From Chrysomallon squamiferum (lineage: Eukaryota > Animalia > Mollusca): a stretch of 64,000 bases of DNA. The translations under genes and the position numbers were made by a program. This document shows, in pieces, positions 1 to 44,469 of this stretch. Location: contig CM022678.1 of NCBI GenBank assembly GCA_012295275.1, forward strand, positions 186,001-250,000. Direction: 5' to 3'. The number at the start of each line of letters is the position of its first letter. Position 1 is the stretch's first letter. The notes beneath the pieces are model-generated. The model ran no database searches and was not told where the DNA came from. It was given only the letters and a program-made list of their open reading frames with translations.

Positions 1-1813
1 AAAGTTTCTTTTTCTGATATGTTAATTTCATTTTACACAGATTTGATGCAAAAAAGCTTGACAATGTTCTTAGTCCATACGCAACACAGTGACTTGGAAC
101 AGATGTTAAATTTATTGATTTTTTTTCAACTTTCAAATCATTATGAAGGAGACTTGAAATATTGCTGAGAATTTGATTGGCAGTATTTATATATATGAAT
201 GATACATAAACAGTTGGAAAGTTTTCTTCAAAAAAATGTATATTTTGGCTACGAAATACATCTTGATCAATTCCACGTAGTCCTTGATGCAGTATTTCAG
301 ATGTTTTGCCATAAAAGTGTTTTTCCTCTGTCATATACTTAACAAACTCTTCATCTTTCAGTGACGGATGTGAGATAATTTTTCTGAAATTGTCTGATGC
401 CAGCAAAACAGTAAATCTGCGAGCAAGAACATCAAAGCAGTCAGGTCTCACAGTCATTGTAATGTGACTTTTGTCAGACACTCCAGGTGTCACAACATAT
501 TCTAACAACATGGAGACAGGACACACTTCTAGCAACTCTGCTGCTTTCTTTGGAAACTCTGATGAAAAAATCAGAAACAAAGAGTCAAACACTGATTGGT
601 GAATAAATGTGTATCTATTGTCAGAACACTCCAGATACGTACCACACATTATATCAGCTGTTTTCTTTATATCTGTAAGATCTGTGTTTTTTACACTCTG
701 ACAGACTCGCTCTAGCAGTCTTACTAATTTCATTATGTCACTGTCAGAGGCATTTTCAAATGGATCCAGTGAATCAATGCTGAGACTGCCTTGCTGAAAC
801 ATGATCAGCAGTAGAACCAGGTAATTAATCTGTGAAGATTTATCATTTTTCAAATTTTCCAGCCCTTGTCTCAGATATTCTACAGGTTTCTCAAAAAACT
901 TGACTCCTCTTTTTTGTGCATCACTTGAATTAACATAATAAACACACACCTGAGGAAATCCTAACTCTGTACATGTATTGTAATTGCCACAACACCATAC
1001 ATCAGTTTCATTCATTTTAACATCCTTTTGTTTGAGATATCTGTTTAGAATTTCTTTTTTTCATCATAATCCAGACAACAGTCATCACTCTGCAGATCAA
1101 GAACATGATTCTCATTAAACAGACCAAATTCCTTCAAACTAGTTTTACTTTCTAAAATATTTGTTTTCTTAAAGTAATAATACATTTCAAAGAACCTTCC
1201 TGAACAAGACTCCATATCTCTGGAAATTTGAGTTTCCATGATTCTATAAAATCTGAAACGAGATTAGTCTTACCAAATATATCATCAATGAGAACAACAC
1301 TTTTCTTATTTCTAGATAGAGGGATGTCACTGAATCCAGTGTGATGAGTCAGTGAGTAAGATTCTCTTTTTTCTTCATTTTCAATCTTTCTCATCATGCT
1401 CAAAGCTAGAGTTGTCTTTCCTAAACCTGGACTTCCTACTACAATCACAACACCATACTGCTTCAAAAGTTCAACACCTCTTTTCTCTGCTCTTGTTTCA
1501 ACATAGACTCTCCAGTCAGCTGAGTTTAACACTGACCTGGTACACTCTGTATTACAGCATTAAAAAACCCCATCTATTATTAATTATTTTGAACATATTT
1601 TACCATTTAGATATAAATAATATAATTTTCAACTGGATATCAGAGGTCAAGTTCTTAAAAGAAAAATGCTATAATTTGTTTCATAAGTTTAGTTCAGCAG
1701 AATTTAATGAAGATAAAAAGTTGTCACAATTTTAGATGGTGTAAAAGTAACAAGATGATTATTTTGTTATTTATGAATTTATTTGGAAATTGTACAAATA
1801 ATAATAAAAAAAT

Positions 1814-1875
<62 letters not shown>

Positions 1876-3100
1876 CTTTGATATTGGATGCTCGCACATC
1901 AGTCTTTGCTGAAATAATATAAAAACAAAACAAGTAAATTTGTGTTATTGATGATCAGTAAAAGAAATGATTGAAGTGATCTGTACAATTACTCTGCATT
2001 TTATTCATCAGCAAACATGTAACATTATTATTAAATCTTTGTTATTTATTTTACTACAATTATTACTACTATTATCAAAACTACTGCTGTTGTTTCTTAT
2101 CATTAATGCTATTTATTGTTATTGTTCATATTATTATTACTATTATTACGATTATTATTATTATTATTATTATTATTGTTGTTGTTGTTGTTGTTGTTGT
2201 TGGTGTTGGTTTTGGTGGTGGTGGTGGTGGTGGTGGTGTATGATTATTGTTGTTGTTGTACCTTCTTCTGTATATTAGTATCCACATGTAATAATAATGA
2301 CAGGTAGATAGTCTTGTTTAATTCATGTATATATTAACAGTTTAAGATTAAACTCTAGTTCAGTTCAGCATAAATAAACTGTGTCACTGTCTGAACATAT
2401 GTGTGTGTGTGCAATGCATGTCTGCATATATATGTGTGTGTGTATGTATGTGTTCAGTGTATGTGTTATATAGGTATATATTTAAATATCTTGTATGTAT
2501 TGTGTATATGTCTGTATGAGCATGTTACTATGTTGTTCAGGTCACAGTGATAGAAATGTACTAATGACTACTGTGATGTGTATTCTGTTATTTATTAAGC
2601 TGGTAGAAAAAAGAAACTTTCAGTTTTTAACTTACTAGTTTTAATAACTTGATTTCCAAACACAACATTCCTACAATTAGACGCAGCCTGGTAATTCTGA
2701 ACTGTGATGTTATTTACATTGTGCTCTACCACTGGTTGCGTTCTTCCAGTATCTTTGTAAACAGAGTAAAAGAAATTAGTTAAATTCACAATTTAAAAAA
2801 TAATTTCTAAAAACAATATATCTACTTGTAGAGATATGACACTGTACACTATTAATGCAGTCTGTCCTGACAGTATTTCTGAATATAACTATTCATTTTT
2901 TTTTTAAATATGTATAATATTGTTATGAATATAAAAGAAAAAAAAGTCACATTTCAAAGCCTAACAAAAATTAAAACAAAATATAAACAAGAGTTGAAAT
3001 ATTTCATTATTAAAGATACAAATAATTTTGTCATACTCTCTGAGGAAGACATATCTGTAACGTTAGATGAAATCTGTGAACTCTTTTTTCTGTCATTCAT
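1..3100 (-). pseudogene. STAND NTPase (nSTAND3-like) gene, copy A; 5' part only, two frameshifts, runs off the window start
   Basis: Exons 3037-3110 (ATG at 3100), 2636-2752 and 1546 to <1 have canonical AG/GT sites and compatible phases. Walker A GSPGLGKT, Walker B VLIDDIFG, IITLR, GFPQ and FIHQS motifs are present. Alignment to copy B shows 1-bp deletions at about 1153 and about 1057. 1-3420 is colinear with about 18742-22080, introns included. Confidence 0.8.
2636..2752 (-). CDS. Symmetric phase 1-1 exon with RHIM/cRHIM-like motif, copy A (TGRTQPVVEHNVNNITVQNYQAASNCRNVVFGNQVIKT)
   Basis: 117 bp, tttacaaag acceptor and gtaagt donor, open and in frame with the NTPase exon; conserved with 21273-21389. 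Confidence 0.75.
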
Positions 3101-4928
3101 GTTGGTTGAGCTGTAAAAAATAATATAATGATTTTTAAAACAAGAATAAAATTGTTTTAATGTATTCTATTCACTGCTATATAAGATTAAGCAAAATTCA
3201 GATAAAAAATAAAATAAAACCCACTTCATGGTATATTCTTTCTCATGAACAACAAGTGATATTTCCTTTAAACATACCCAGACAGTACATACACTGCTAA
3301 AATGAAAATTGCTTTCGTTCCATAAATATATTCCTGAAATATTGTTATAAAATATCAGAATCTAAGTAAGTTTTAATAAAAGTCCTCATTTTCTAAACAG
3401 TGATGAGATTGTTATATAAAGATAGACTTTTAATATCAGGGTGACAAGATTTCTTGTGTGGCTGTGTTTAAAAACTGTCATTTACAAACCACCAATACAG
3501 TAATGATATCTATAAATAGTACAGCATTCAACCATTAAAAAAACTTTCTTTATTTGCTGTTTATTTTTTAGAGGTGATTTCTCAATGCCATATATACAGG
3601 TATTTGAAAGAAAAAAAGAAAAACATACATATATTAATGTTATTTCATGCAGTTTAAACATTATTTTACAATAATTATAATAATTTATTAATGTTTATCA
3701 TATATTCATTCCTTTTGAATGTAAATGGTTTTTGAAAATAATGAAACAGATCACTACTCTATTTGTATTTAAATAGAAATCCAGGTGAACCGTCTAAAAA
3801 ATGAAAATAGCTAACATATAAAAAAAGTCAATAAATAACTTATTAAATAAAGAGCTGTAATACGTTACTACTAATAATAATACATATAAAAACATACTAA
3901 AGATCAGGTTAAAATGTTTAAGTGCTTGTGGTATTTAGGACAATGTGACGAATTCACTGTTAAGACATTGTGCAGAAAATAAAAAAATAAAAAAACAAAC
4001 ATTTGTCTATATTGTGAGAAGCTAAATCATTTCAATAACGGCGCTACATACAAACACAATTACAAAAACGGAATTAGTTTCATTAAACAAAATAGAAAAG
4101 GAATTCAAAAATAATACAGTATATGAGATAATATTATTATAAAATTTTTCATCCGTAACATCCATATACGAGAATTGTAAATACAATTTCGCTGACAACA
4201 TATTTTCAAGTCAGGCTTTATGTAACGTTTTTCATATGAATATAAAAGAACACCTGACACTAGCATGACGTATTTGTTAGAGAACTAACTCTGATATATC
4301 TAAAAATAATCAAACTAGGAACACTCGAATCGTTAAAACATAATAAATTATAAAATATCATCCGCTTTCAATATGGCCGACTTGTTTCACTTCTGTTTTG
4401 TTTACTTTTAGCTATCAGAATCCGCCACTGATAAACACGTTGACTGACGTCAAATATCTTACACGTCATCAGGTGTCACTTCTCAGGTTTCAATGTCAGA
4501 CTGAAATACACAAATCGTGTTACGAGACATGTACACTCATCTTACAAGCATTTTTCCTTCAAGTAAATTATATTGATTTAATGTAGTTCTATTACTCTGC
4601 ATTGTTTTTATTTGTTATTAAATGTATATACTACTACTACTACTACTACTACTAATAATAATAATAATAATAATCATAGTAATAATAATAATAATGATTC
4701 AAAAGAAAAATGAAAAATAAGTGCAGCTATTAGTTTTAGAACTATATCGGTGCCAACTATCGGTACTCTCTTAGAAGCGAGTTATTCCCTGTTTAATTAT
4801 TCTACTCATTGATCAAAGCCAAGATCACAGATAGTAAATAAATAGCTTGATAAAAATAAAATAAAAATAAAATATTTTGAATACATGAATAAATAAATGG
4901 AACTGAAATAAAGATGGGATAAAAATAT

Positions 4929-5504: not shown

Positions 5505-6070
5505 CATAGGTTAGGGCTAGGCCCAGAACTAGGTTAGGGCTAGGGTAACATTAGTGTCATATTTAGTTTTGATTTTATGGTTAGAGTTAGGTTAGTATAA
5601 GACTTAAAATTAAAGTTACCGTTGGCATTATCGTTAGGGGTTAGATTCTGGTAAGATTTAGTTATCTGTTTACCATATGACTAGGGTTAAAGTTAGTTTT
5701 ATGGTTAGGCTTAATGTTGGCTTGTATGCAGATGGCGCTAGATACAAGATTGGACGTCCCCCTGTTCGCATCTACGTCCTCAGCCTTCCGTAGATACATG
5801 CTAGTAAGGACGTATGTGAAATTGTACTTTTCACGGAAACAGGCACGTCGGTTCATTTCGGCGACACTCGGTAGGTTTGAAGTCGGCGACTGGAAAAGAA
5901 ACGTGAAATCGTGACGTCATCGGAGCTCGATACAAGATTAGAAGTAAAGTTGTTTTAACAATGCACTGGGCAGCGTCCGGTCAGCTTCTACGTCTGCAAA
6001 CACGTCACGTGTTATTTTATAACAAAAAAAATATTAATAGTATTTTAATGTGAGTTATTTGACGTCAGCT
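5505..6070. mobile_element. Dispersed repeat with degenerate TTAGGG-like tract and one monomer of the 54/55-bp satellite
   Basis: ggttagggctaggg-like tract at about 5505-5715; monomer at 5925-5976; the following ~95 bp match the right flank of the array at 44470-44560. Element class not determined. Confidence 0.5.
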
Positions 6071-9652: not shown

Positions 9653-11764
9653 CACTATAATAGTTATCTGTGTTATATGTCAAAAAGAAATAAGAGTATG
9701 AAAATATTAAGTGTACATTACAATGCATTGTTCTCTAACTATTAAATATGTAAATGCAGATAAAATGTATTGAAAATGAAAACTATCATTTTCTTTATTA
9801 ATTTTGTTACTGTCTGTTTTCTAATGATAACTTAGTCAAATTTAAACATTATGTGAAACTATTTCCTTATTAATAAGAGGAAACAAATGCAGATATTTTC
9901 TTTGTTATGACAATGAGTTATGAAACGAACAGTAAAAAAGTGTATATATACATACACACACATGCACACATCATAATTATAAACATAATAACATATTTAG
10001 TAACTACAGATCTATATATAGGTGTATATATGATAATATAATACATATTAAAAAAAGTATTACAATTTATTTATTAAATACAAACATTTTATCAAATGTC
10101 TATAAAAATCTTATATTAAACATTGTAATAGTAGTTCACCTGCTATAAACACAGTGAAAATATTTAGTAACTACAGATCTATGTTTTTAAAAAGAAAAAA
10201 TAATATATATATATATATACACACACACGCATACATATATATCAATATATATTAAAAAATATTACAATATATTTATAAAAAACAAAACTTTTATAAAATA
10301 AGACTATAAAATTTATATTGAACATTGTAGTACTAGTTCACTTGCCATAAACACAGTGAAAATATTTAGTTCTACAGAACTATTTTGTTATAAAATAAAA
10401 ATGTTAATAAACATTACATTAGTCTAAACACAGTAAAACATTCATTTAGCATGACAGAACTATTTTGTAAAGTAAACACAAAATCCTTTGCATTTAACAT
10501 TAATACACAATTTTACTTAGTAAAAACAATATAAGACAGCACTATTTTATAAAGTAAAACCTATGTATTTTACTCAACATTAAAACACAACTTTAATTAA
10601 AACATCCAATTTAACAGATATGTTCACACATGAACAGCAACACGAGTAATAATCAAGTCATCATGAATAAAAACTGTCTAACTTTTCACTGACTGAATAA
10701 CCAGATGAAAATTAACATCAGTATTTAATATTGTTGTATTATTATTATTAACCCTAACTTATCTTAATTTCTTTTTAAACTGAATTGGGTAATAAATCCC
10801 CCAAAGTGTTTGAGTGAAAAGTAAAAATCAAGTGAAAATTACGTAAGGATGCACAGCATTATATTATTTCTTCTTACGTATAAATACAAACAGACAACAC
10901 AGTATTTAAACAGAAACAAAAGACTATACAACAGGAATACAACAAATTATACAGTTTGGTACAATATTTCAATAGATACAATATATTATACAATATGGTA
11001 ATACAATATTTGTACAGAAATAGAAACTATACCATACTTCAATACAATCTTTGAACTGATAAAATAGACTTTACCATTCATTAACACAATATTTCAACAG
11101 ATGTAATAGTAATACAATATCTGTACACAAACAAAAACTACATTAATACAATACTTGAATATATACAATAGACCATAATATGGTAATACCTGTATATAAC
11201 CAGAAACTGCACCAAATATTATTTAAATAGAAATAGCAGAGTACACAGCACGGTAATGCAGTATTTGAATATAAACAATATATAGTATCTAGATATGGGC
11301 CATTCCATGGTATTTGATCCATGGTATGCAAATTTTAAAATGATCCATTAAACTAAGAATTTATTGATAATGAAAGTTAAAATCATTAAGCATGTAAAAA
11401 TATGTTGTCATTAACAGTTTACTTCTGTTTTATGGTTTCTGATGACATTTGTATTTGGAAAATGTAAATTGTAAGACGTGACGTGACATTTTTTTTTTTT
11501 TTCAGTAATGTTAAACTAGGTGTGACGACAACATATTCACAATATACAGTGTATGAAAAACCTATTTTTGCCTTCTTTAATGTCACAATTTATGTTTGTA
11601 ATTAATTTGCAAAAGATATAATGTCACGTCCTGGCTACTTTGACATATAAAAGTTAATATTATTTAAGAAATATTCCTAAGAAATAAAAAATACTTTTCA
11701 ATTTTCCTCCTACTCAAGAGGAACAAACTAATTAGAAGCTATGTAAGTAAGAGCTGGTATAAAT

Positions 11765-12608
11765 GTATAAAACAAAGTGACAGTCTGAGCCAGGACGTGA
11801 CAAACAAGAAAATACACGTATGTACAGCAGTTATCAGATCTATGTAAGTAACAGCTTGTATAAATCAAAGTGACAGTCTGAGCCAGGATGTGACAGACAA
11901 GAAAATACACGCATGTACAGCAGTTATCAGATCTATGTAAGTAACAGCTTGTATAAAACAAAGTGACAGTCTGAGCCAGGACGTGACAAACAAGAAAATA
12001 CACGCATGTACAGCAGTTATCAGATCTCTGTAAGTAACAGCTTGTATAAAACAAAGTGACTGTCTGAGCCAGGATGTGACAAACAAGATGGCTGGTGGTT
12101 GAGAAAATACACGCATGTACAGCAGTTATCAGATCTATGTAAGTAACAGCTTGTATAAAACAAAGTGACAGTCTGAGCCAGGATGTGACAAACAAGAAAA
12201 TACACGAATGTACAGCAGTTATCAGATCTATGTAAGTAACAGCTTGTATAAAACAAAGTGACAGTCTGAGCCAGGACGTGACAAACAATAAAATACACGC
12301 ATGTACACCAGTTATCAGATCTCTGTAAGTAACAGCTTGTATAAAACAAAGTGACAGTCTGAGCCAGGACGTGACAAACAAGAAAATACACGCATGTACA
12401 GCAGTTATCAGATCTCTGTAAGTAACAGCTTGTATAAAACAAAGTGACAGTCTGAGCCAGGACGTGACAAACAAGAAAATACACGCATGTACAGCAGTTA
12501 TCAGATCTCTGTAAGTAACAGCTTGTATAAAACAAAGTGACAGTCTGAGCCAGGATGTGACAAACAAGAAAATACACGCATGTACAGCAGTTATCAGATC
12601 TCTGTAAG
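11765..12608. repeat. 93-bp tandem repeat, 9 copies
   Basis: Unit gtataaaacaaagtgacagtctgagccaggacgtgac...gtaagtaacagctt starts at 11765, 11858, 11951, 12044 (16-bp insert), 12153, 12246, 12339, 12432 and 12525. Confidence 0.95.
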
Positions 12609-13979: not shown

Positions 13980-15404
13980 CTTTAGCACTATGCTCCAGTA
14001 ATACAAATAATTTCCCTTTGGTTACAATTTACATTTTTTATCATTCAGAGATGAATAAAGGTCATCATCGTAATAATTAACTGAAGTCAGAAGAGGAGTT
14101 TCCCATCGACTGTCTTTGACATTTACAGCCAAACCTTTTTAGTCAGCACTTCCAAAATTTCTAATTTGCAAATTCAGCTGCTGTGTTAAATAGAATTGTT
14201 ATCTTTGATTGCTAAATTTGGATGAGCTCCATGCGCCCATAAACACACAAAAATGTCCCTTTTGTTATAATCAAACCTGCAATTCATAGCTTTATCCAGA
14301 GGAGTTTCACCATTAGAATTAATAACATTTACATCAACACCTTTTTCAATCAGTGCCATCACAATTTCTGCATTTCCACATTTAGCTGCTAAGTGTAAAA
14401 CAGAATTATTATCATTGTCTGTTAAATTAAGATCAGCTCCATTTTCCAGTAAATAGAGAACTACTTGACGGTTTTCATCATTCAGATGTGGACCAAAGTA
14501 ATTTTCCTCATAATTAACAGCTGTAAAAAGAGGAGTTTCACCTCTACTGTTTTTGAAATTTACATCAACACCTTTTTCAATCAGTGCTGTCACAATTTCT
14601 ATATTTCCAGATTCAGCTGCCTTGTGTAAAATAGAATTGTTATCATTGTCTGTTAAATTAGGATCAGCTCCATTTTCCAGTAGATACAGAACTACTTGAC
14701 GGTTTTCATCATTCAGATGTGGATCAAAGCAATTTTCCTCATAATTAACAGCTGTAAAAAGAGGAGTTTCACCTCTACTGTTTTTGAAATTTACATCCAC
14801 ACCTTTTTCAATCAGTGCTGTCACAATATCTACATTTCCACATTTAGCTGCTAAGTGTAAAATAGAATTGTTATCGTTGTCTGTTAAATTAAGACCAGCT
14901 CCATGTTCCAGTAAATACAGAACTATTTGGCGATTTTCATCATTCAGATATAGATCAAAGTAATTTTCCTCATAATTAACAGCTGTAAAAAGAGGAGTTT
15001 CACCTCTACTGTTTCTGAAATTTACATCCACACCTTTTCGAATCAGTGCTGTCACAATTTCTATATTTCCACATTTAGCTGCTAAGTGTAAAATAGAATT
15101 GTTATCGTTGTCTGTTAAATTAAGATCAGCTCCATGTTCCAGTAAATACAAAACTACTTCACATTTTTCATGATTCAGAGATGGATTATATTCACTTTCA
15201 TCACAATTAACAGCTGTAAAAAGAGGAGTTTCACCTCTACTGTTTTTCATATTTACATCCAAACCTTTTTCAATCAGTGCTATCACAATTTCTGTATATC
15301 CATATTTAGCTGCTAAGTGTAAAATAGAATTGTTATCATTGCCTGTTAAATTAGGATCAGCTCCATGCGCCCATAAACACAAAACAATTTCCCTTTTCCT
15401 ACAA
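13980..15404 (-). pseudogene. Out-of-frame continuation of the copy B ankyrin array (5 intact two-ankyrin units plus 1 decayed unit)
   Basis: ORF 14186-15457 continues the same 77-aa unit in another frame after a net 5-nt deletion at about 15417. Beyond the stop at 14186 a frameshifted unit (EILEVLTKK...ETPLLTSVNYYDDD) is still recognisable. Confidence 0.85.
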
Positions 15405-17430
15405 TCAAACCTGTAACCCTTTATCCAGAGGAGTCTCACCACTGGAATTAATAACATTTACATCAACACCTTTTTCAGTCAGCGCCATCACAATTTCTGT
15501 ATTTCCACATTCAGCTGCTAAGTGTAAAACAGAATTGTTATCATTGTCTGTTAAATTAAGATCAGCTCCATGTTCCAGTAAATAAAAAGCTATTTTACAT
15601 TTTTCCTCATTCAGATATGGATCAAAGTAATTTTCCACATAATTAACAGCTATAAAAAGAGGAGTCTTACCTTGACTGTTTTTCAGATTTACATCAACAC
15701 CTTTTTCAATCAGTGCCATCACAATTTCTATATTTCCAGATTCAGCTGCTAAGTGTAAAACAGAATTGTTATCATTGTCTGTTAAATTAGGATCAGCTCC
15801 ATGTTCGAGTAAGAAATAGACTACTTTACATATTTCATCATTCAGAGATGGATTATATTCATCTTCCTCATAATTAACAGCTTTTAAAAGAGGAGTTTCA
15901 CCTTTATTGTTTTTAATATTTTCGTCAACACCTTTTTCAATCAGTGCTGTCACAATTTCTATATTTCCACATTCAGCTGCTACGTGTAAAACAGAATTGT
16001 TATCTTTGTCTGTTAAGTTATGATCAGCTCCATGTTCCAGTAAATACAAAACTACTTCACATTTGTTACGATTCAGAGATGTATTATATTCACCTTCATC
16101 ATAATTAACAGATGTAAGAAGAGGAGTTTCACCTTTATTGTTTTTAATATTTACATTCACACCTTTTTCAATCACTGCTTTCAGAACACCAACATTTCCA
16201 CAGTTAGCTGCTAAGTGTAAAACAGAATTGTTATCATTGTCTGTTAAGTTAGGATCAGCTCCATGTTCCAGTAAATACAAAACTATTTCGCTGTCACAGG
16301 AGTATATTCGACGACTGCAAAAATCATCTATGTAGTAATTCAGAGCTGTAAAAAGAGGAGTTTCACCTTTATTGTTTTGAATATTGACATGCACACCTTT
16401 TTCATACACTGCTGTCACAATTTTTATGTCTCCATGTTCAGCTGCTAAGTGCAAAACAGAATTGTTATCACTGTCAGTTAAATTAGGATCAGCTCCATGT
16501 TCCAGTAAATACAAAACTACTTTACATTTTTCATCAGTCAGAAATGGATGAAAGTGATCTGCATCACAATTAACAGCTGCAAAAAGAGGAGTTTCACCAC
16601 TCCTGTTTTTCATATTTACATCAAAGCCTTTTTCAATCAGTGCTGTCACAATTTCTATATTTCCATACTTAGCTGATAGGTGTAAAACAGAATTGTCATC
16701 ATTCTGTATTAAATTAGGATCAGCTCCATGTTCCAGTAAACAAAACATTACCTTACATTTTTCATCATTAACTGATGAATCATATTCATGTCCATCATAT
16801 TTAAGAGCTAAAGCAAGAGGAGTTTCACCTCTGTTGTTTTTTATATTTACATCAACACCTTTTTCAATCAGTGCTGTCACAATTTTAATACTTGCACATT
16901 TAACTGTTAAGTGTAAAACAGAATTGTTATCACTGTCAGTTAAATTAGGATCAGCTCCATGTTCCAGTAAATACAAAACTGCTTTCAATTTTTCATCATT
17001 TACAAATGGATCAAGCTCATCTTCATCATAATTAACAGATGTAAAAAGAGGAGTTTCACCTCTACAGTTTCTAACATTTACATCCAAACCATTTTGAATC
17101 AGTGCTGCCACAATTTCAATATTTCCTTGATAAGCTGCTAAGTGTAAAACAGAATTGCTATCATCATCTGTTAAATTAGGATCAGCTCCATGTTCCAGTA
17201 AATACAAAACTGCTTTCAATTTTTCATCATTTACAAATGGATCAAGCTCATCTTCATCATAATTAACAGATGTAAAAAGAGGAGTTTCACCTCTACAGTT
17301 TCTAACATTTACATCCAAACCATTTTGAATCAGTGCTGCCACAATTTCAATATTTCCTTGATAAGCTGCTAAGTGTAAAACAGAATTGCTATCATCATCT
17401 GTTAAATTAGGATCAGCTCCATGTTCCAGT
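13980..17430 (-). repeat. Coding tandem array of ~231-bp (77-aa) two-ankyrin units, ~15 units
   Basis: Recurring HGADPNLTDxDNNSVLHLAA...GETPLFTAVNY[loop]VVLYLLE; a near-perfect duplicate pair is spaced 231 bp apart (17001 versus 17232). Confidence 0.92.
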
Positions 17431-20400
17431 AAATACAAAACAACTTCATTCTGTTTAAGTGCAACAGCTTTAAAAAGATGACTGTTTATAATATTTACAT
17501 CCATACCCTTTTCAATCAGTGCAGTCACAATTTCTTTAATTCCATGTTCAATTGCTAGGTTTAAAACAGAATTGTTATAAGTTTTTGTTAAATTAAGATC
17601 AGCTCCTTGTTTCAGTAAGTATAAAGCTATTTCTGGTCTGTCATGATATAAAGACAAAAGAAGAGGAGTTTCCCCTTTAGTGTTAATTACATTTATATCA
17701 ACACCCTTTTGTGTTACTTTTTTCACCACATCTATGTCAATTTGAGATGCTATGTGCAGTGCTGAATTCTTTCCTTTATCTGTTATATCAGTATCAGCAC
17801 CACTTTCCAGTAACAACAAAGCTACTTCCTTTCTGTGTGTCACTGCTTTTACAGTTTCATGAAGTGGAGTTCTTCCCTCACTGTTTACTGCATTAACATC
17901 AGCATTTCTGTCTATCAGTGATTTTGTCATATATAAGTCACCACGCTGAACTGAAAAGTGGAGAGCTGTGTCTGAAGGCAACAGTTTCAAACAAGGTCTA
18001 TGTTTAAGCAACTGTTTCAATATAATTTGCTTTTCAAAGAACTGAATCAATTTCTCTTTGACAGCTACATTCACATTAGGATCAGCACCTTTATCAAGAA
18101 GGCACTGAACAACATCTACACCGTTAAACATCACAGCTACTTTCAGTACTTCACTTTTCTTCCAGTTGTTCTCATCTGTATCATTTCGTCTCTGCTCAAT
18201 GAGAAAATGCACTGTATCAGTAGATCCCCACATTGCTGCTGCTAAAAGTACTTTATCTCTGTTCTCATCATTTAAACAATCAGGTTTCAGTTTTACTATT
18301 TCTTTAATAACATCTGAATTACTCTGACCAGCTGCAATATTAGCAATATATTTAATTTTGTTTATTATATCATTGGTAACCAGCTTCTTAAATAGATGTA
18401 TGACAGAGTTTTTAAAACTTATGTAACTTACTTTTCTATGGAACTTAACCAATAACAGTTTCACAGCTTTTTCTTTGACTTCCTTGTTGTTTTTCTCTTT
18501 GTTTATCATGTCAGCCAACAGACAGGCAATGTTCATGTTATCTGAATAAATAGAAAGACATAACAAGTGGGAAAACAGAGTCAACTTCATCTCCTTTTTA
18601 TACTGTAACAATTGTTTCAGTATGGTAGCACTGTCTGTTTTTGAACATGCTGCTGCACTGAATGTATCAAATGTTGGAATGACACCTGATTCTAGCAAAA
18701 GTTTCACAACATATTCATCACCAAACAAACAAGAAATATCCAAAAGTTCTTTTTTCAGATATGTGTATTTCATTTTACATAGATTTTCTGCCAAAAATCT
18801 TGACAATGTCCTTAGTCCATTAACAATACACTCACTTGGAACAGATGTTGAATTTATTAATTTCTTTTCAACTTTTAAATCACTATCAAGAAGAGATGGT
18901 CTATTGCTGAATATTTCATTAGCAATGTTTATATATATGAATGATACATAAACAGTTTGAAAGTTTTTTTCAGAAACATCTATAAATTGTCTCCGAAATA
19001 CATCTTGATGAATTCCACGTAGTCTTTGATGCAGTATTTCAGGTGTTTTGCCATAAAAGTGTTTTTCCTCTGTCATATACTTCACAAACTCTTCATCTTT
19101 CAGTGACGGATGTGAAATAATTTTTCTGAAATTGTCTGATGCCAGCAAATCAGTAAATCTGCGAGCAAGAACATCAAAGCAGTCAGGTGTCACAGTCATT
19201 GTAATGTGACTTTTGTTAGACACTCCAGGTGTCACAACATATTCTAACAACATGGAGACAGGGCACACTTCTAGCAACTCTGCTGCTTTCTCTGGAAAGT
19301 CTGATGAAAAGATCAGAAACACAGAGTCAAACATTGACTGATGAATAAATGTGTATTTATTGTCACAGCAGTTCAAGTAGGTACCGCACATTACATCAGC
19401 TGTTTTCTTTATATCTGTGAGATCTGTGTTTTTTACACTCTGACAGACTCGCTCTAGCAGCCTTATTAATTTCATTATTTCACTGTCAGTGTCATTTTTA
19501 AATGGGTCCAGTGAATCAATGTTGAGACTGCCTTGCTGAAACATGATCAGCAGTAGAACCAGGTAATTAATCTGTGAAGATTTATCATTTTTCAAATTTT
19601 CCAGCCCTTGTCTCAGATAGTCTACAGGTTTCTCAAAAAACTTGACTCCTCTTTTTTGTGCATCACTTGAAGTAACATAATAAACACACACCTGAGGAAA
19701 TCCTAACTCTTTACATGAATTGCAAATAACACAACACCTTATATCAGTTTTATCCATTGTAACATTCTTTTGTTCAAGGTATCTGTTTAGAATTTCTTCT
19801 TTTTCATCATCATCCAGACAACAATCATCACTCTGCAGACCAAGAACATGTTTCTCCTTAAACAGACCAAATTCCTTCAAACTAGTTTCACTTTCTGAAA
19901 ATATTTGTTTTCTTAAAGTAATAATGCATTTCAGAGAACCTTCCTGAACAAGATTCCAGATCACTGGAAATTTGAGTTTCCATGATTCTATAAAATCTGA
20001 AACAAGATTAGTCTTACCAAATATATCATCAATGAGAACAACACATTTCTTATTTTCAGATAGAGAGATGCCACTGAAACCAGTGTGATGAGTCAGCAAG
20101 TAAGATTCTCTTTTTTCTTCATTTTCTATCTGTCTCATCATTCTCAAAGCAAGAGTTGTCTTTCCTGAACCTGGACTTCCTACTACAATCACAACACCGT
20201 TCTGCTTCAAAAGTTCAACACCTCTTTTCTCTGCTCTTGTTTCAACATAGACTCTCCAGTCAACTGAGTTTAACACTGACCTGGTACACTCTGTATCACA
20301 GCATTAAAAAACAAACCATCTATTATTAATTATTTTGAACATATTTTACCATTTAGATATAAAAAATATAATTTTTAACTGGGTATCAGAGGTGAACTTC

Positions 20401-20542
20401 TTAAAAGAAAAATGCAATAGTTTGTTTCATAAGTTGAGTTCAGCAGAATTTAATGAAGCTAAAACGTTGTCACAATTTTAGATGGTGTAAAAGTAACGAG
20501 ATGATTATTTTGTTATTTATGAATATCTTTGGAAATTGTACA

Positions 20543-20582
<40 letters not shown>

Positions 20583-23500
20583 TACCTTTGATATTGGATG
20601 CTTTCACATCAGTCTTTGCTGAAATAGTATAATAATAAAACAAGTAAGTTTGTGTTATTGATGATAAGTAAAAGAAATGATTAAAGTGATCTGTACAATT
20701 ACTCTGCATTTTATTAATCAGTAAACATATAACATTATTATTAAATCTTTGTTATTTATTTTACTACAGTTTTTACTACTATTACTAAAACTACTGCTGT
20801 TGTTTCTTATCACTAATGCTATTTATTGTTATTGTTTATATTATTATTACTATTATTACAATTATTATTATTATTATTATTGTTGTTGTTGTACCTTCTT
20901 GTGTATATTAGTATCCACATATAATAATAATAATGACAGGTAGATAGTCTTGTTTAATTCATGTATATATTAACAGTTTAAGATTAAACTCTAGTTCAGT
21001 TCAGCATACATAAACTGTGTCACTGTCTGAACATATTTGTGTGTGTGCAATGCATATCTGCATATATACATGTGTGTGTATGTATGTGTTCAGTGTAAGT
21101 GTTATATAGGTATATATTTAAATATGTTGTATATATTGGGTATATATCTGTATGAGCATCTTACTCTGTTGTTCAGGTCACAATGATAGAAATGTACTAA
21201 TGACTACTGTGGTGTGTATTCTGTTATTTATTAAGCAGGTAGAAAAAAGGAAACTTTCAGTTTTTAACTTACTGGTGTTAATAACTTGATTTCCAAACAC
21301 AACATTCCTACAATTAGACACAGCCTGGTAAGTCTGAACTGTGCTGATGTTTACACTGTGCTCTACCACTGGTTGAGTTCTTCCAGTATCTTTGTAAACA
21401 GAGCAAAATAAATTATTTAAATTAACAATTTAAAATAATAATTTCTAAAAACAATATATCTACTTGTAGAGATATGTCACTGTACACTATGCAGTCTGTC
21501 CTAACAGTATTTCTGAATATAACAATACATTTTTTTTTTTTTTTAAATATGTATAATATTGTTATGAATATAAAAGAAAAAATTGTCACGTTTCAAAGCC
21601 TAACAAAAATTAAACCAAAATATAAACACGAATTGAAATATTTCATTATTAAAGATACAAATAATTGTGTCGTACTCTCTGAGGAAGACATATCTGTAAC
21701 GTTAGATGAAATTTGTGAACTCTTTTTTCTGTCTTTCATGTTGGTTGAGCTGTAAAAAATAATATAATGATTTTCAAAACAGAAGAAAGAAAAACAAAAA
21801 TGTTCAATGTATTCTATTCACTGCTACATAAGATTAAGCAAAATTCAGATTAAAACAAATTGAAAAAAAAAATGAAACCCACTTCATGGTATATTCTTTC
21901 TCATGAACAACAAGTGATATTTCATTTCAACCTACCCACAGACAGTACATACACTGCTAAAATGAAAATTGCTTTTGTTCCATAAATATATTCCTGAAAT
22001 ATTGTTATAAAATATCAGAAGCTAAATAAGTTTTAATAAATGTCCTCATTTTCTAAACAGTGATGAGATTGTTATATAAAAATAGTCATGAAAAGACAAT
22101 TAACACCTCACTGCTAATGAGAAAACTTGATACTGTTGTAATTAATTACTCTTACATCATATTATAATCAGTTCATTCGAAACATTTTCTAACAATTAAC
22201 TCATAACTATCACAAAGCATTTGTACGATGTTTTCTAAGTAGCAGTTTTGTAAATATAATAACTGTTCCAATAGTTATATTATCTGATACCTTAGTTTCA
22301 AAGTAAATGTAATAATTATCACAATATATGTACTATTTATAACAGTTTTATAATAAATATAATAATTATATAAATACTCATGAAAACAATTTTAACAGTG
22401 TTGTTACTTCATTTTATTGCTTTTTTTCCTCTTTTCATGGGATGGTGATTCACCACTAGGGCCAGGTTCTGGGTCTGGGTTGCTGTGTTTCTCAGCTGTT
22501 CTGCTGCTTTGTCGAAGCGACATCGTCAACCTGAAACACACAGATTTACTAGTGCTATTCCAAGTTTACCTAACCATTGCACATATACATGAAAGCAATA
22601 CATTTCACTAAAATCACTGAAAATAACTAAATCTGTGAGATGTAAGAAAAGTCATACATAAAACACACATGTTGATCAGCCTGCATACATGAAGGAAAGA
22701 TGAAAACAAATTTTAAACATTCAACAGCAAAAACACAGGTAAAACTCAATTACATAAGTCAATTTTATCTTATTTACTGTGTGCACACACTTTCATGTTT
22801 GATTTTCATTCATGCATATTATTTCTTGAAAAAGCATCTCTGGTAACATCATTTTAAATAATAATCTACAAAACAATCACAGCTGAATAAGTTCACATAG
22901 TTCTCGGTTCAGATTTATGCAGAACATCATATAAATAATACTACTAGAATCAATTCCACTCTTAGTGTTGTCTGTCCTCTTACTTTGTCATATAAGCAAT
23001 ACAAATATAAATATAACATGTGAACAGTTTTACCAAGTTATATTCTCACTTAGCTATACACTTAGTTTTGTGGATTGTACTAAATTATTTTATATAAACA
23101 AAACAAATATAAATGTAACGTGAACACTTTTACTAAGTTATACTTTAAAGTTTTGTCAACTGTACTAAATTATGTTATAAAAATATAAATATAATTGTAT
23201 TCTTACTTATCAATATAACATAACATGTGAACAGTTTGACCAAGTTGTATTCTTGGTTTTGTGGATTCTACTAAATTATGTTAAGTATGTTACAGGCTGA
23301 TTTTTAATCTGTCACTGACCATATTTCATGAGGATGCCACACATATTCATATCTCAAAATGTGGACTTCTTTCCTTTAGTCAGAATGGGTGATGTGTGCA
23401 AGTTGTTCAGTTTGAAGTGTCTGACAGAAAAGTAGTAATAACAACCTGATGTGTTTTCTGTTATATATAAAACATGTAGAGAAAAAGAAAAGTTTCAGTT

Positions 23501-25941
23501 TTCAACTTGCAAATTAAATTATCTTCTACTCCTAAATGAACATTTGCACAGCAAGATATAAGATTCACTGTTTGTCGTACAAGCTGTATTATTTTATTAA
23601 ATTTATAACTCACAAGCTTATTTTTGTTTTTAAATGTTTGTATCTGTAAGGACAGCATACAGTATTAATACAATCTATTATTTGTTAAAAGTATTACTAA
23701 ATATAACAATATATGGTTTAAAAAATGTTTTATCTGATTAAGTGTAGGTGTATGAAATATACATTACTTTACAGTTTTAAAATGTATAACAGAAAAACAA
23801 GAATAATTATAATAGTCATGATGAAATAATCAAACAGTAACCAGTGTGTGTTTTGCTTTACTGTGAAACAAAAAGGCCACAGAGACTTTAAATTGCTAAT
23901 TCATTATCAATATAAATTGAAAAAGTTTCAATTTAGTAATTCCGAAGATAGAATAAACAATATATTGAAAAAAGTGTATTGTTCCAAATGTAAACAATAC
24001 TATTGTCAGTTTAGAATGTATCATTAATAAAGTAAACAATATATTGAAATATACTATTATTGCAAATACCAAAATTATTTTTTCTCTTTATAATTTTCTA
24101 TCAAAAGTAAACAGTATTTTGAAATATTGAAATTTTGTCATCAGAATTCAGTTAAATAAGTGATAAAGAACTTTGTCTTATTGAAAGTGCGGACACACTT
24201 TCATCTTTGATTTTCAAACCTCACGCATATTATTTCTTGAAGAAACATTTTTCAGTTGAGATATAACATAATTTGTAAATAATAATGTTTAAAACGTAGA
24301 ACAATCACAGATGAGTCACTTCACAGTTCAGGATTCAGATTCATGCATGGATTCATATAAATAACATTAGAATCAATCTCAATCAATCTTAGTCTTGTCT
24401 GTCTTATTAGTGAAATATGCTACATAAGCAATAAAATTATAATTTCTCATTAGTTTTACTAAGTTATAATTCTTTGTTTTGTCAGTGTACTAAATTATGT
24501 TGCAAAAATAATGCATAAATATAACTTCTGAATATTTTCACCAAGTTATATTTTTACTTATCAAAATAACATATCATGTGAATAGTTTTACTAAGTTATA
24601 TTCTTAGTTTTGTCAACTGTACTAAATTATGTTATATGATACTCATAGTGATACTGTAGCTTTGTATACTGTAGTTTTTATTTTTTTAATGAAAATAAAT
24701 TACAATTTTTTTTTTTAAATAATAAAAGGCTAATATTAATATGAGGATTTTTTAATACAAAAATGGATATGAAAGCAGTGTTCACAATGCTGTTGATAAA
24801 AAAAACTTTGTAATTAATTACCTTGTTTCGGATTTCTTTTTTTTCTTGTTCTGATGTGGTGATGGGCTGACAGGGCCAGGTTCTGTGTCTGTGTTGCTGT
24901 GTTTCTCAGCTGTTCTTCTGCTTTGTTGAATAGTCAACCTGAAACACACATATTTACTACTGCTATTCCAAGTTTACCTGAACATTACAAAGATATATGA
25001 AAGCTATCAACAGAACATTTCTCTAAAATCACTGAAAATTACTAATTCTGTGAGATTTAACTAAAGTCTGTGAAAATTACTGCATTGACATTATTTTAGA
25101 TTTGGTGACATCAACTTTCCATTTAATGTATTTTTCATACATAAAACACATATGTTGATCAGCCTGATACATGAAGAAAAGATGAAAACAAATTTTAAAC
25201 ACTTAACAGCAATAACACAGGTAAAATTCAGTTAAATAAGTGTCAACTTTATCTTATTTACTGTGTGTACACACTTTCATGTTTGATTTTCATTCATGCT
25301 AATTATTTCTTGAAAAAGCATCTCTGGTAACATAATTTTAAATAATAATCTTCAAAACAATCACAGCTGAATGAGTTCACATAGTTCATGGTTCAGATTT
25401 ATGCACAACATCATATAAATAATACTACTAGAATCAATTTCACTCTTTGTTTTGTCTGTCCTCTTACTAACTTTGTCATATAAACAATACAAATATAAAT
25501 ATAACATGTGAACAGTTTTATCAAGTTATATTCTCACTTAGCTATACACTTAGTTTTGTGGATTGTACTAAATTATTTTATATAAACAAAACAAATACTT
25601 ATCAAAATAACATAACAGGTAAATAGTTTTACTAAGTTATATTCTTAGTTTTGTCAACTGTACTAAATTATGTTATATGATACTCATAGTGATACTGTAG
25701 CTTTGTGTACTGTAGTTTTTATTTTTTTTATAAAAATAAATTATAAAAATATTTTTTTTATACAAAAATGGATATGAAAGCAGTGATCACAATGCTGTTG
25801 ATAAAAAAACTTTGTAATTAATTACCTTGTTTTGGATTTCTTTTTTTTCTTGTTCTGAGGTGGTGATGGGCTGACTGGGCCAGGTTCTGTGTCTGTGTTG
25901 CTGTGTTTCTCAGCTGTTATTCTGCTTTGTTGAAGAGACAT
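15405..25941 (-). CDS. NLR-like STAND NTPase (nSTAND3-like) with ankyrin repeats, copy B; predicted 1810 aa from 6 exons
   Basis: Exons 25826-25941, 24822-24938, 22408-22530, 21676-21749, 21273-21389 and 15405-20290 all have AG/GT sites, sum to 5433 nt and read through without a stop. Walker A GSPGSGKT, Walker B VLIDDIFG, sensor-1-like IITLR, GxP (GFPQ) and winged-helix-like FIHQS motifs are followed by many ankyrin repeats (GETPL, SVLHLAA, GADPN). The large exon is certain; use of the upstream exons is inferred. Confidence 0.85.
21273..21389 (-). CDS. Symmetric phase 1-1 exon with RHIM/cRHIM-like motif, copy B (TGRTQPVVEHSVNISTVQTYQAVSNCRNVVFGNQVINT)
   Basis: 117 bp, canonical splice sites, in frame with the phase-1 acceptor at 20290. 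Confidence 0.75.
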
Positions 25942-25948
25942 AGTCAAC
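22408..25948 (-). repeat. Intragenic duplications producing three homologous phase 2-2 exons (22408-22530, 24822-24938, 25826-25948)
   Basis: Each begins tgtgtttcag|GTTGAC and encodes TAEKHSNxDxEPGP followed by a lysine cluster; lengths 123, 117 and 123 bp. Flanking introns are also duplicated (about 22480-23100 with 24880-25600; about 24560-25150 with 25600-26200). Confidence 0.85.
23511..23643 (-). pseudogene. Degenerate paralogue of the RHIM-like exon (…NLISCCANVHLGVEDNLI)
   Basis: ttacag acceptor; the 3' boundary gcaagttgaaaactgaaac mirrors gtaagttaaaaactgaaag of the RHIM-like exon. It is 133 bp, has a GC donor, and its phase does not fit the neighbouring exons. Confidence 0.5.
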
Positions 25949-26327
25949 CTGAAACACACAGATTTACTACTGCTATTCCAAGTTTACCTAAACATTACAA
26001 ATATACATGAAAGCTATCAACAGAACATTTGTATAAAATCACTGGAAATGACTAAACCTGTGCAATGTAACAAAAATTACTGCATTGCTATTAATTTAGG
26101 TTTGTGGACATCAGCTTTACATTTAACACATTTTTCATACTAAAAACACGTTGGTCTGTCTGCATACACAAAGAAATGTCAAAAACTAATTCTAAACACT
26201 TAGTAACGATAACACAGGTAAAATCATGTCATCAGAATTGATTTAATGTAGTTCTATTACTTTGCATTGTTTTTATTTGTTATAAAATGTATATAATAAT
26301 AATAATAATAACAGCAGCAGCAAAAAC

Positions 26328-33546: not shown

Positions 33547-35085
33547 TTACGTTTGTTTCTTCATCGATGTTTCAAACCTCGATCGTGTTTTTTGCACTAA
33601 AAGTAACAAAGCAGGTATTTGTCCGTCTGTCACACATGTACGAAGTTGTCTGTCACTGTGTTTAGATTTGTGTGACTCAGAAAATCTACAAACAAAAGAG
33701 TCTACAACAATTCTTGATTTACCTTCACCTCCACACCATGTGCGTCCTCCCTTAACATTAACAAACAAGCTGTACTCAGTGTCTTCAGTAATCTTCACTG
33801 GACGTCTGAACTCGACGTCATACACATCGGACACGAGTTCATATCTCTGTGTCAGCGTAGACCCATCCATGATTACGTCTGTTCTTGTGTCAGTGACGAA
33901 GGCGCTGACGTCGTAGTTTCGTGGTACATAGTAACCGTACAACTGAAATCCGCGAAGTAAAGCATTTTTCTTGACAGAGAAAGTAATGGAGTCATCATAT
34001 TCACCAGAACATGACAAGTAATCAAATAATCCGAGTAATTCACCATACGTACCTAACCTGTTTATTGTAATCTGTGTTTTCATTCCAGTTCTCTTGTTAG
34101 AGTTAAAAGGTGAAACATCTTCATCACTGCTCACCAAGTTTTTAAAAATCTTGATTTGTTCTGCGTCAGTGAGTATGTGAGTGGGTGTCACGTGTTTTAC
34201 AAAATACGTCTGATCGAGTAATGGATAACGCACGTGCTTCACGACCTCTCCCAGTGCTTCGCGCATGTTCTTTCCATTCGTCGCTCTTACTTGCTTCCTG
34301 CAGGCGCTGTCAGCCCACTTCACAGCGGCTTCAAAACAATTTTTCTCGTCTGCTCTCAGTTCGTCTGATAGTACGATCTCAACCAGACATTCGTGACAAA
34401 GATCGGTGACTTCACCTGACTTCAGAACTTCGTCGCCATTTTTCAAAATGAAGTCCAGAGTTTTTTTCCTTAGATCATGTTCATCAAACAGGTGAGCTTG
34501 TTCCAACACGACGCACGCATTCTGTGACGACAACGACGACTCAAAATAGTTTAAGCATTTGGCTTCAAGAGTTGTGATGATGTACTTCCTCGATAGATAC
34601 AGCAGACCGGTGACGTTGTCGCCTGTTAGGACGACGTCATCCGTATAAAGATATCTGCGTAAAAGAAGTAGATTAAGACATTAAAGTATCAGATAATTAT
34701 GTGACATTAATTATTTAATAAACAATTAGATTACTAACAAAAACTGTATTGTTATCAACGTTTCTGTCTGTCTGTATGTGTTTAACGTGTGTGTGTGTGT
34801 GTGTGAGTGTGTGTGTGTTTTAACATACTTTAAAAACTCTGAGAAGATTTCTGCCTGCATATCCGGTACTTTGATACTTGTTTGTTCGCGAAGTTCTCCG
34901 GTCAGCATCTGATGAAAAACTTCGCTTCGAATAATGAGAATAAAACGATGGGCATCGACAGCAACTTTATGTTCACCAACCAAAAATCTGACGTCCGTGT
35001 CAGTTCTTGTACGAAAAACGTGTTCAAGGCATTGCATCAGATTCTTCCCTGTCTGCCAACTTGAGATTATAGTTGCGGTGGCCAT
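33547..35085 (-). CDS. BTB/POZ-BACK-PHR domain protein (BTBD1/2/3/6-like), 2 coding exons, 454 aa
   Basis: Exons 34829-35085 and 33547-34654 joined by a phase-2 intron (gtatgt...ttttacgcag), 1365 nt. BTB: DVRFLVG...AHRFILIIRSEVFHQML...FLKYLYTD. BACK: CFEAAVKWADSAC...VRYPLL. PHR: DSITFSV...RGFQLYG...GQIPALL. Confidence 0.92.
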
Positions 35086-44200: not shown

Positions 44201-44469
44201 GCTCGATACAAGATTAGAAGTAAAGTTGTTTTAACAGTGCCTGGGCAGCGTGGCGCTCGATACAAGATTAGAAGTAAAGTTGTTTTAACAATGCCTGGGC
44301 AGCGTGGCGCTCGATACAAGATTAGAAGTAAAGTTGTTTTAACAATGCACTGGGCAGCGTGGCGCTCGATACAAGATTAGAAGTAAAGTTGTTTTAACAA
44401 TGCACTGGGCAGCGTGGCGCTCGATACAAGATTAGAAGTAAAGTTGTTTTAACAATGCCTGGGCAGCGT
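38267..44469. repeat. 54/55-bp satellite array, roughly 110-115 copies, truncated by the gap
   Basis: Unit GATACAAGAT(T/C)AGAAGTAAAGTTGTTTTAACAATGC(A)CTGGGCAGCGTGGCGCTC repeated head-to-tail with no spacers. Confidence 0.98.

What the first reader, a model, noticed from the sequence alone, without database searches (positions are those of the whole stretch)
15405..21389. Animal NLR-like receptor with an N-terminal RHIM/cRHIM-like amyloid motif, STAND NTPase and ankyrin sensor
Seen: a 117-bp symmetric exon, hidden from the ORF track by introns, splices in frame directly ahead of the NTPase in both paralogues. It encodes a V/N/I/T/Q-rich strand followed by invariant SNCRNVVFGNQ. No death-fold, TIR or HEPN effector domain is visible N-terminally. 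Known: RHIM cores are (I/V)Q(I/V)G and Drosophila cRHIM cores are of the VTFG/VHIG/LHFG type (PGRP-LC, PGRP-LE, Imd); fungal NLRs signal through amyloid motif-STAND-repeat architectures. Inference: this is a lophotrochozoan immune receptor whose oligomerisation nucleates an amyloid signal to a RHIM-bearing partner, convergent with fungal and bacterial amyloid-signalling NLRs.
Basis: partly seen in the sequence, partly recalled or inferred. Interest (0 to 1): 0.9.

Follow-up and report, generated by a model that had tools for sequence, protein, structure and literature searches.

The report
Snail immune receptor with RHIM-like tag
A snail gene for an NLR-like receptor (STAND ATPase plus ankyrin repeats) carries, on its own spliced exon, a short peptide spaced like the mammalian RHIM cell-death motif, in the slot where relatives carry death or enzyme domains, so these mollusc receptors likely signal by amyloid-type stacking, which is untested.

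Summary
Mostly confirmed. The minus-strand gene encodes a 1,742-aa nSTAND3-ankyrin protein, closest to Gigantopelta aegis proteins (45%). RNA contigs splice the 117-bp exon. Corrections: it joins a missed 33-bp micro-exon, not the NTPase exon; 'invariant in both paralogues' means little (introns 94-96% identical, second copy frameshifted). Of 79 homologue N-termini, 48 have no folded domain and share short strand motifs well above shuffles; others carry Death, DED, CARD, SAM, caspase or HEPN there. The window's motif fits the RIP1/RIP3 register at six positions but lacks the core Gln and the downstream Asn. Pfam RHIM hit neither it nor 30 homologues, and a profile built without it recovered it in only about a third of runs. 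No partner was found and amyloid formation is untested. RHIM-NACHT-repeat proteins are already reported in amphioxus (PMC4262963), so the concept is not new; I found no report for mollusc nSTAND3 receptors. The scan noted similar motif-NLRs on other DNA (sea squirt, arthropod; unchecked notes). Verdict: new variant of a known kind, RHIM-like signalling tag about 55% likely.

The parts
25826..25948 (-). Upstream 123-bp exon, duplicate of the ATG exon; in frame, adds a basic disordered segment
   Evidence: RNA joint 22528/25824 (CT..AC, cut +2) in X1, X2; repeat families D1/D2; translation
24822..24938 (-). Upstream 117-bp exon, second duplicate of the ATG exon; in frame, no ATG of its own
   Evidence: RNA joint 22528/24820 in X1, X2, X3
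22408..22530 (-). 123-bp exon with ATG at 22523; disordered, Lys/Arg-rich
   Evidence: RNA joint 21749/22408 in X2, X3; an alternative out-of-frame donor at 22454 in X1
21676..21749 (-). 74-bp exon, Ser-rich; residues about 50-66 are a weak second motif candidate
   Evidence: RNA joints; best query window in 9 of 15 motif reruns, mostly weak
21273..21389 (-). 117-bp phase-1/phase-1 exon carrying the RHIM-like peptide
21292..21321 (-). RHIM-like core, residues 87-96: Val -9, Asn -7, Cys -6, Val -3, Phe -1, Gly 0; Gly lies 55 residues before Walker A
20586..20618 (-).
   Evidence: RNA joint 20618/21273 and loose ends at 20292; AG/GT borders
19029..20290 (-). nSTAND3 NTPase with helical and winged-helix-like subdomains; Walker A and B intact
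   Evidence: Pfam PF20720 E 1.8e-24; conserved columns; model pLDDT 93; fold matches incl. NRC1 NB-ARC, Avs5, SAMD9
15405..18230 (-). Ankyrin array, incl. about 8.6 tandem 231-bp (77-aa) units; ends at a frameshift-derived stop
   Evidence: start approximate
14025..15445 (-). Out-of-frame continuation of the ankyrin array (about 4.5 more units)
1..3110 (-). Second copy: exons 3110-3037, 2752-2636 (motif), 1908-1876, and NTPase exon from 1546 with two frameshifts near 1153 and 1055; runs off the window

Best explanation
This is an expressed mollusc nSTAND3-ankyrin NLR-like gene whose unstructured N-terminus carries a divergent RHIM-like peptide that likely serves as its signalling module. Shown: gene structure, domains, splicing, absence of a recognisable folded effector, and that relatives put Death, DED, CARD, SAM, caspase or HEPN domains in the same slot. 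Inferred from STAND biology: the variable ankyrin array senses a ligand, nucleotide exchange oligomerises the NTPase, and the ring brings several copies of the peptide together. Inferred from RHIM/HET-s biology: the clustered peptides would fold as stacked beta-arches and seed the same fold in a partner bearing a matching motif, most plausibly a mollusc RIPK1-like kinase or adaptor, leading to NF-kB activation or cell death.
For: Slot exchange: Pfam finds Death, DED, CARD, SAM, caspase and HEPN N-terminal to nSTAND3 in relatives; a motif-bearing scallop protein (P0148) and a DED-bearing one (P0103) are sisters with support 100. Family signal: motif search on 48 domain-free N-termini without the query scores 141 against 84-88 in 5 shuffled sets (width 12) and 122-149 in 15 reruns. 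The width-14 profile picks residues 89-102 (1 of 5000 N-terminus shuffles) and ranks the two window copies 1st and 3rd of 53,855 six-frame windows. RHIM register: six positions match the RIP1/RIP3 rows of PMC4262963 Fig. S1A. A class pattern from those rows hits only this site in the window (0.3 expected) and only one N-terminus (P0097, a mussel) in 180,629 aa of stored proteins. Hydrophobics at -11, -9, -3, -1 plus Gly (spacing from bioRxiv 10.64898/2026.02.19.706818) occur in 4 of 48 domain-free N-termini (0.9 expected, 3 of 300 shuffles) and 0 of 31 folded ones, including P0014 in the query's own clade. The canonical tetrad occurs in 3 of 48 (0.6 expected). Phe at the third tetrad place is a natural, functional RIPK3 variant, and RHIM-bearing RIPK1 exists in zebra mussel and other spiralians (PMC12119088 passages).
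Against: The query lacks the core Gln, the Asn at +3 and an aliphatic at -11; its 4-of-5 register score arises in 13% of shuffles. Pfam RHIM hit neither the exon nor any of 30 homologues. Recovery of the motif by a query-free profile is seed-dependent: 4 of 15 reruns gave a good match, 9 chose residues 50-57 instead; width 10 gave 565 of 5000. Of 8 patterns tested, 4 were not enriched and the rest only at 0.005-0.04 uncorrected. The class pattern was relaxed at three positions after I had seen the query. The nearest homologue (P0011) has no Gly-ended motif near the NTPase. No partner was found (weak searches, no genome held). The second copy is broken and this copy's ankyrin array is cut by a frameshift.
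Confidence: 0.55

Rival explanations
1. The peptide is a real conserved motif but acts as an ordinary short linear motif: a beta-strand that docks on a folded partner or folds back on the NTPase or ankyrin part to keep the receptor off, without amyloid.
For: The family holds several motif subclasses, many without the Gly that RHIM and HET-s need. Many lie at a near-fixed distance from Walker A (7 of 15 pattern matches at 57-70 residues, query 55), as an intramolecular latch would.
Against: The other 8 matches lie 93-197 residues away. The hydrophobic spacing equals the RHIM nucleation spacing, and some relatives carry the canonical tetrad.
Confidence: 0.25
2. The resemblance is chance in a Val/Asn/Thr-rich disordered tail of a fast-turning-over, partly decaying gene family; the protein is a sensor without its own output (or a pseudogene in the making).
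For: VxxG arises in 31% of shuffles of this N-terminus. Identity between the two copies is explained by recent duplication. Copy B is frameshifted and copy A's array is truncated. Pfam, PDB sequence search and Atlas gave nothing.
Against: Family-level motif signal far above shuffles in every run; strict pattern in 0.04% of N-terminus shuffles; exon is spliced into transcripts of the family; 6 amino-acid changes between the copies all fall outside the core (weak).
Confidence: 0.2

Closest known systems
Amphioxus RHIM-NACHT-repeat protein BF82280 and other Branchiostoma RHIM proteins (Kajava et al. 2014, PMC4262963; whole text and supplement read, figures not held)
   Same: Animal STAND protein with a RHIM-type motif N-terminal to the NTPase, in a slot otherwise held by death-fold domains, and C-terminal repeats.
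   Different: Here the NTPase is nSTAND3, not NACHT; the sensor is ankyrin; the host is a gastropod; the motif lacks the core Gln and the downstream Asn.
Fungal NWD2/HET-S and PNT1/HELLP, bacterial BASS-NLR/Bell pairs (passages of PMC12881547, PMC7889193, bioRxiv 10.1101/2020.01.06.895854)
   Same: Short amyloid-type motif, STAND domain, repeat sensor (WD40, TPR, ANK).
   Different: There the motif is at the very N-terminus and the effector gene is adjacent; here it lies about 90 residues in and no motif-bearing partner gene is in the 64-kb window. Amyloid function is proven there, untested here.
Mammalian RIPK1/RIPK3 RHIM and spiralian RIPK1 (PMC8883498, PMC12119088, bioRxiv 10.64898/2026.02.19.706818; passages)
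   Same: Spacing of hydrophobics at -9, -3, -1, Asn-Cys at -7/-6 as in RIP3, and the Gly at 0.
   Different: No Gln at -2, no Asn at +3, no aliphatic at -11; carried by a STAND receptor, not a kinase.
Drosophila cRHIM of PGRP-LC/LE and Imd (PMC13506858 passages)
   Same: Fits the VxxG definition.
   Different: That definition is met by 31% of shuffles, so it carries little weight.
Mollusc nSTAND3/NACHT receptors with HEPN_DZIP3 or death-fold N-termini (PMC9646362 passages)
   Same: Same NTPase family or architecture, lineage-specific expansion, tandem copies.
   Different: Folded effector replaced by a disordered tail with a short motif.

Membership tests
nSTAND3 NLR-like receptor | nSTAND3 NTPase above Pfam cut-off with intact Walker A/B | tested here: met
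   86.6 bits vs cut-off 27.2; motifs intact
nSTAND3 NLR-like receptor | STAND module fold (NBD, helical domain, winged helix) and C-terminal repeats | tested here: met
   Model pLDDT 93; highest query TM-score among the listed matches 0.43 to NRC1 NB-ARC, further matches Avs5, SAMD9, resistosomes but also AAA+ proteins; ankyrins
nSTAND3 NLR-like receptor | Ligand-triggered oligomerisation and immune role | not testable with these tools
   Inferred from STAND family knowledge
Canonical RHIM | Core tetrad (V/I)-Q-(V/I/L/C)-G (PMC8883498) | tested here: not met
   Val in place of Gln, Phe third; met by 3 of 48 homologue N-termini
Canonical RHIM | Match to the Pfam RHIM model | tested here: not met
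   0 families for the exon at E<=1; no RHIM row for 30 of 30 homologues (in 2 of them only the best 25 families were shown)
Canonical RHIM | Nucleation hydrophobics at -11, -9, -3, -1 and Gly 0 (bioRxiv 10.64898/2026.02.19.706818) | tested here: inconclusive
   4 of 5 in the query, 5 of 5 in 4 homologues
Canonical RHIM | C-terminal Asn-x-apolar extension (PMC4262963) | tested here: not met
   Val at +3, Asn at +5; HET-s repeats also lack it
cRHIM | VxxG core (PMC13506858) | tested here: met
   Residues 93-96, but 31% of shuffles match too
Amyloid-signalling NLR (NWD2/BASS type) | Short motif in a disordered region N-terminal to the STAND domain, no folded effector | tested here: met
Amyloid-signalling NLR (NWD2/BASS type) | Partner effector with the matching motif | tested here: inconclusive
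   None in the window or in two word-based searches; no genome held
Amyloid-signalling NLR (NWD2/BASS type) | Motif forms cross-beta fibrils and seeds the partner | not testable with these tools
   Needs bench assays

The most novel reading that the evidence does not exclude
Gastropods and bivalves have a large, unrecognised class of nSTAND3-ankyrin receptors that signal through a diversified set of RHIM-related amyloid motifs, exchanged with death-fold, caspase and HEPN domains as exon-sized cassettes; the motif subclasses would act as separate signalling channels, as HRAM and BASS families do in fungi and bacteria, so RHIM would not be the only signalling amyloid type in animals.
Probability: 0.3. 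Interest if true: 0.8.

Novelty: new variant of a known kind. Interest (0 to 1): 0.56.

Why it matters
Amyloid signalling by NLRs is proven in fungi and bacteria but in animals rests on one amphioxus architecture noted in 2014. [quoted passage not shown] A mollusc family with dozens of motif-bearing receptors, several motif subclasses and a spiralian RIPK1 as candidate partner makes both questions testable with short peptides. It also explains a class of proteins now annotated 'uncharacterized' or 'ankyrin-like' and shows that such effector motifs hide on small exons that ORF-based annotation misses.

Tried and rejected
Direct splice 21273/20290: not seen; micro-exon model preferred. Two-copy invariance as evidence: rejected. 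Whole-genome partner search: no genome held. Word-based searches with the exon and with the N-terminus of P0014: no candidates, weak evidence. PDB sequence search with the exon: 0 hits; with the NTPase: only P-loop noise. ESM Atlas: no usable hit for the exon or for the P0097 motif. Four-copy complex prediction of the exon: no answer, score 0.03, not evidence either way. Single-sequence model of 863 aa: pLDDT 38, discarded. First two motif searches were unconverged or caught the first NTPase helix, so 16 residues were trimmed. A profile of the family motif was not compared with solved RHIM/HET-s structures, and variation of the motif among expressed paralogues was not read; both stay open. Rows dropped: of 156 stored proteins, 79 had 35 or more residues before the NTPase; 48 were classed domain-free by a hydrophobicity cut-off with 9 manual moves (6 out, 3 in; three SAM and one DED protein stayed in because only the last 200 residues were used). 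The tree held 74 rows (FastTree; the IQ-TREE run did not finish); TIR-like and most HEPN labels on it are by eye or pattern. Literature: 10 searches gave no paper on RHIM-like motifs in mollusc nSTAND3 or NLR proteins; an oyster 'CgRHIM-containing protein' paper was seen only as a reference line; subscription papers and bioRxiv supplements were not visible.
Full report
Gene and host. The window is AT-rich animal DNA. The minus-strand frame 20303-15405 (1,632 aa) holds nSTAND3 (Pfam PF20720, E 1.8e-24) and 19 ankyrin matches. The three best of 10 homologues are Gigantopelta aegis proteins (44-45% over the NTPase), then Haliotis (31-32%) and Mytilus, so the host is likely a gastropod near that lineage. 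A model of the NTPase module from a 63-sequence alignment has pLDDT 93. Its fold matches are STAND and AAA+ proteins, with the highest query TM-score listed (0.43) to the NB-ARC of tomato NRC1.

Splicing. Four RNA runs of one study, kept as contigs, cover the large exon far more deeply than the introns and show canonical joints 21676/21389, 22408/21749, 24820/22528 and 25824/22528. The 117-bp exon is therefore spliced. Its donor joins 20618, and loose ends at 20292 read a 33-bp micro-exon (20618-20586) with AG/GT borders. Many contigs are only 90-99% alike, so part of the signal comes from paralogues. The spliced product from the ATG at 22523 is 1,742 aa with no internal stop; the motif Gly is residue 96 and Walker A starts at 151. 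The N-terminal 114 residues are charged, Pro/Ser-rich and then, at 71-100, nearly uncharged and rich in beta-prone residues.

The second copy. It lies at 3110-1 and is 94-96% identical in introns, 92% in the motif exon. An identical 33-base core is expected with probability about 0.15; the 6 amino-acid changes all lie outside the core. It has two frameshifts early in the NTPase. It is no independent witness. In the main copy a frameshift ends the ankyrin array at 15405, while about 4.5 further 231-bp units follow in another frame.

The family. A search of 1.84 billion representatives gave 1,096 hits, the best 150 listed. Of 156 stored proteins, 79 have a usable N-terminal region. Pfam on 30 chosen homologues shows Death, DED, CARD, SAM, caspase and HEPN_DZIP3 in front of nSTAND3 in some and nothing in the others, and no RHIM row. 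I classed 48 N-termini as domain-free and 31 as folded. A Gibbs motif search on the 48, without the query, scores 141 at width 12 against 84-88 in 5 shuffled sets and 122-149 in 15 reruns, so shared short motifs are real at family level (paralogy contributes to this). The width-14 profile picks query residues 89-102 (13.7 bits; 1 of 5000 N-terminus shuffles, 6 of 5000 exon shuffles, 0 of 1,614 windows in the rest of the protein, folded N-termini at most 7.0) and ranks the two window copies first and third of 53,855 six-frame windows. This is not stable: width 10 gave 565 of 5000, and in 15 reruns the best query window covered the core in 5 (0, 0, 1, 38 and 991 of 1000 shuffles), residues 50-57 in 9 and residue 34 in 1. 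The family evidently holds several subclasses, with and without the Gly. On a 74-row NTPase tree the query sits in a 7-row clade (support 100) whose named members are Gigantopelta proteins, all domain-free and four of six with a Gly-ended pattern or RHIM-like register; a motif-bearing and a DED-bearing scallop protein are sisters; a caspase fusion nests among domain-free abalone proteins. Motif-bearing members were named from Gigantopelta, Haliotis, Mizuhopecten, Solemya and two freshwater mussels.

Is it a RHIM? Not by the strict tests: no Gln in the tetrad (definition in PMC8883498, passage; test), no Pfam match, no Asn at +3. By register it is close. Read by eye against Fig. S1A of PMC4262963, positions -9, -7, -6, -3, -1 and 0 agree with the RIP rows, Asn-Cys at -7/-6 as in RIP3, and the Gly-Asn end and the non-Gln second place resemble HET-s repeat 2. 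A class pattern from those rows, relaxed at three places after I had seen the query, matches only 21321 in the window (0.3 expected), 0.035% of shuffles of the N-terminus, and one N-terminus among 158 stored proteins. Deep mutagenesis places RHIM nucleation on hydrophobics at -11, -9, -3, -1 (bioRxiv 10.64898/2026.02.19.706818, passages): the query has three of four plus Gly, and 4 of 48 domain-free versus 0 of 31 folded N-termini have all five (0.9 expected). Phe at -1 is a natural working variant, and zebra mussel RIPK1 needs its RHIM for full NF-kB activation (PMC12119088, passages). Looser patterns are not or only mildly enriched, and VxxG says nothing.

Mechanism. Shown: architecture, splicing, slot exchange, family-level motif. 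Inferred: ankyrin sensing (the 77-aa units vary in clustered positions), oligomerisation, stacking of the motif, recruitment of a RHIM-bearing kinase or adaptor. No partner was found in the window or by two weak searches, and no genome was held. I give 0.55 to amyloid-type signalling, 0.25 to a non-amyloid linear motif and 0.2 to chance.

Novelty. Kajava et al. 2014 already describe an amphioxus RHIM-NACHT-repeat protein like fungal NWD2 and note that RHIMs take the place of death-fold domains. Ten literature searches found nothing on such motifs in mollusc nSTAND3 receptors. Earlier AI notes of this scan report motif-bearing NLRs in sea-squirt-like and arthropod DNA (unchecked). This is a new variant of a known kind, not a new kind; it is not filed as a RHIM family member.

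Noticed in passing
window 22385-26240: The ATG-bearing exon and its intron are triplicated (spacing about 2.4 and 1.0 kb); RNA joins either upstream copy to the downstream one in frame, and an alternative donor at 22454 shifts the frame so that translation would start at a later ATG.
   Followed up: partly
window 14327-17448: Ankyrin array of 231-bp units with a 272-bp perfectly duplicated stretch (17441-17170) and variable positions clustered in two parts of the unit, like the reshuffled repeats of fungal NLRs; RNA contigs show many other unit variants.
   Followed up: partly
window 33547-34680 (-): Intronless BTB-BACK-PHR fragment (377 aa ORF), unrelated to the finding.
   Followed up: no
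window 38267-44469: About 6 kb satellite of a 54-bp unit beside an N gap; similar sequence at about 5900-6000.
   Followed up: no
window 11764-12608: 93-bp tandem repeat, 9 copies, that gives a spurious 361-aa open frame.
   Followed up: no
P0023 (Haliotis rufescens), P0045/P0049, P0014, P0145: Caspase-nSTAND3-ankyrin fusion; TIR-like (by eye) nSTAND3-ankyrin proteins; two models with two NTPase-ankyrin units in tandem, in P0014 each preceded by the motif (probably fused gene models).
   Followed up: partly
P0001, P0012 (residues 1-28): Two proteins of the query's clade begin with a hydrophobic stretch that looks like a membrane anchor ahead of the disordered tail.
   Followed up: no
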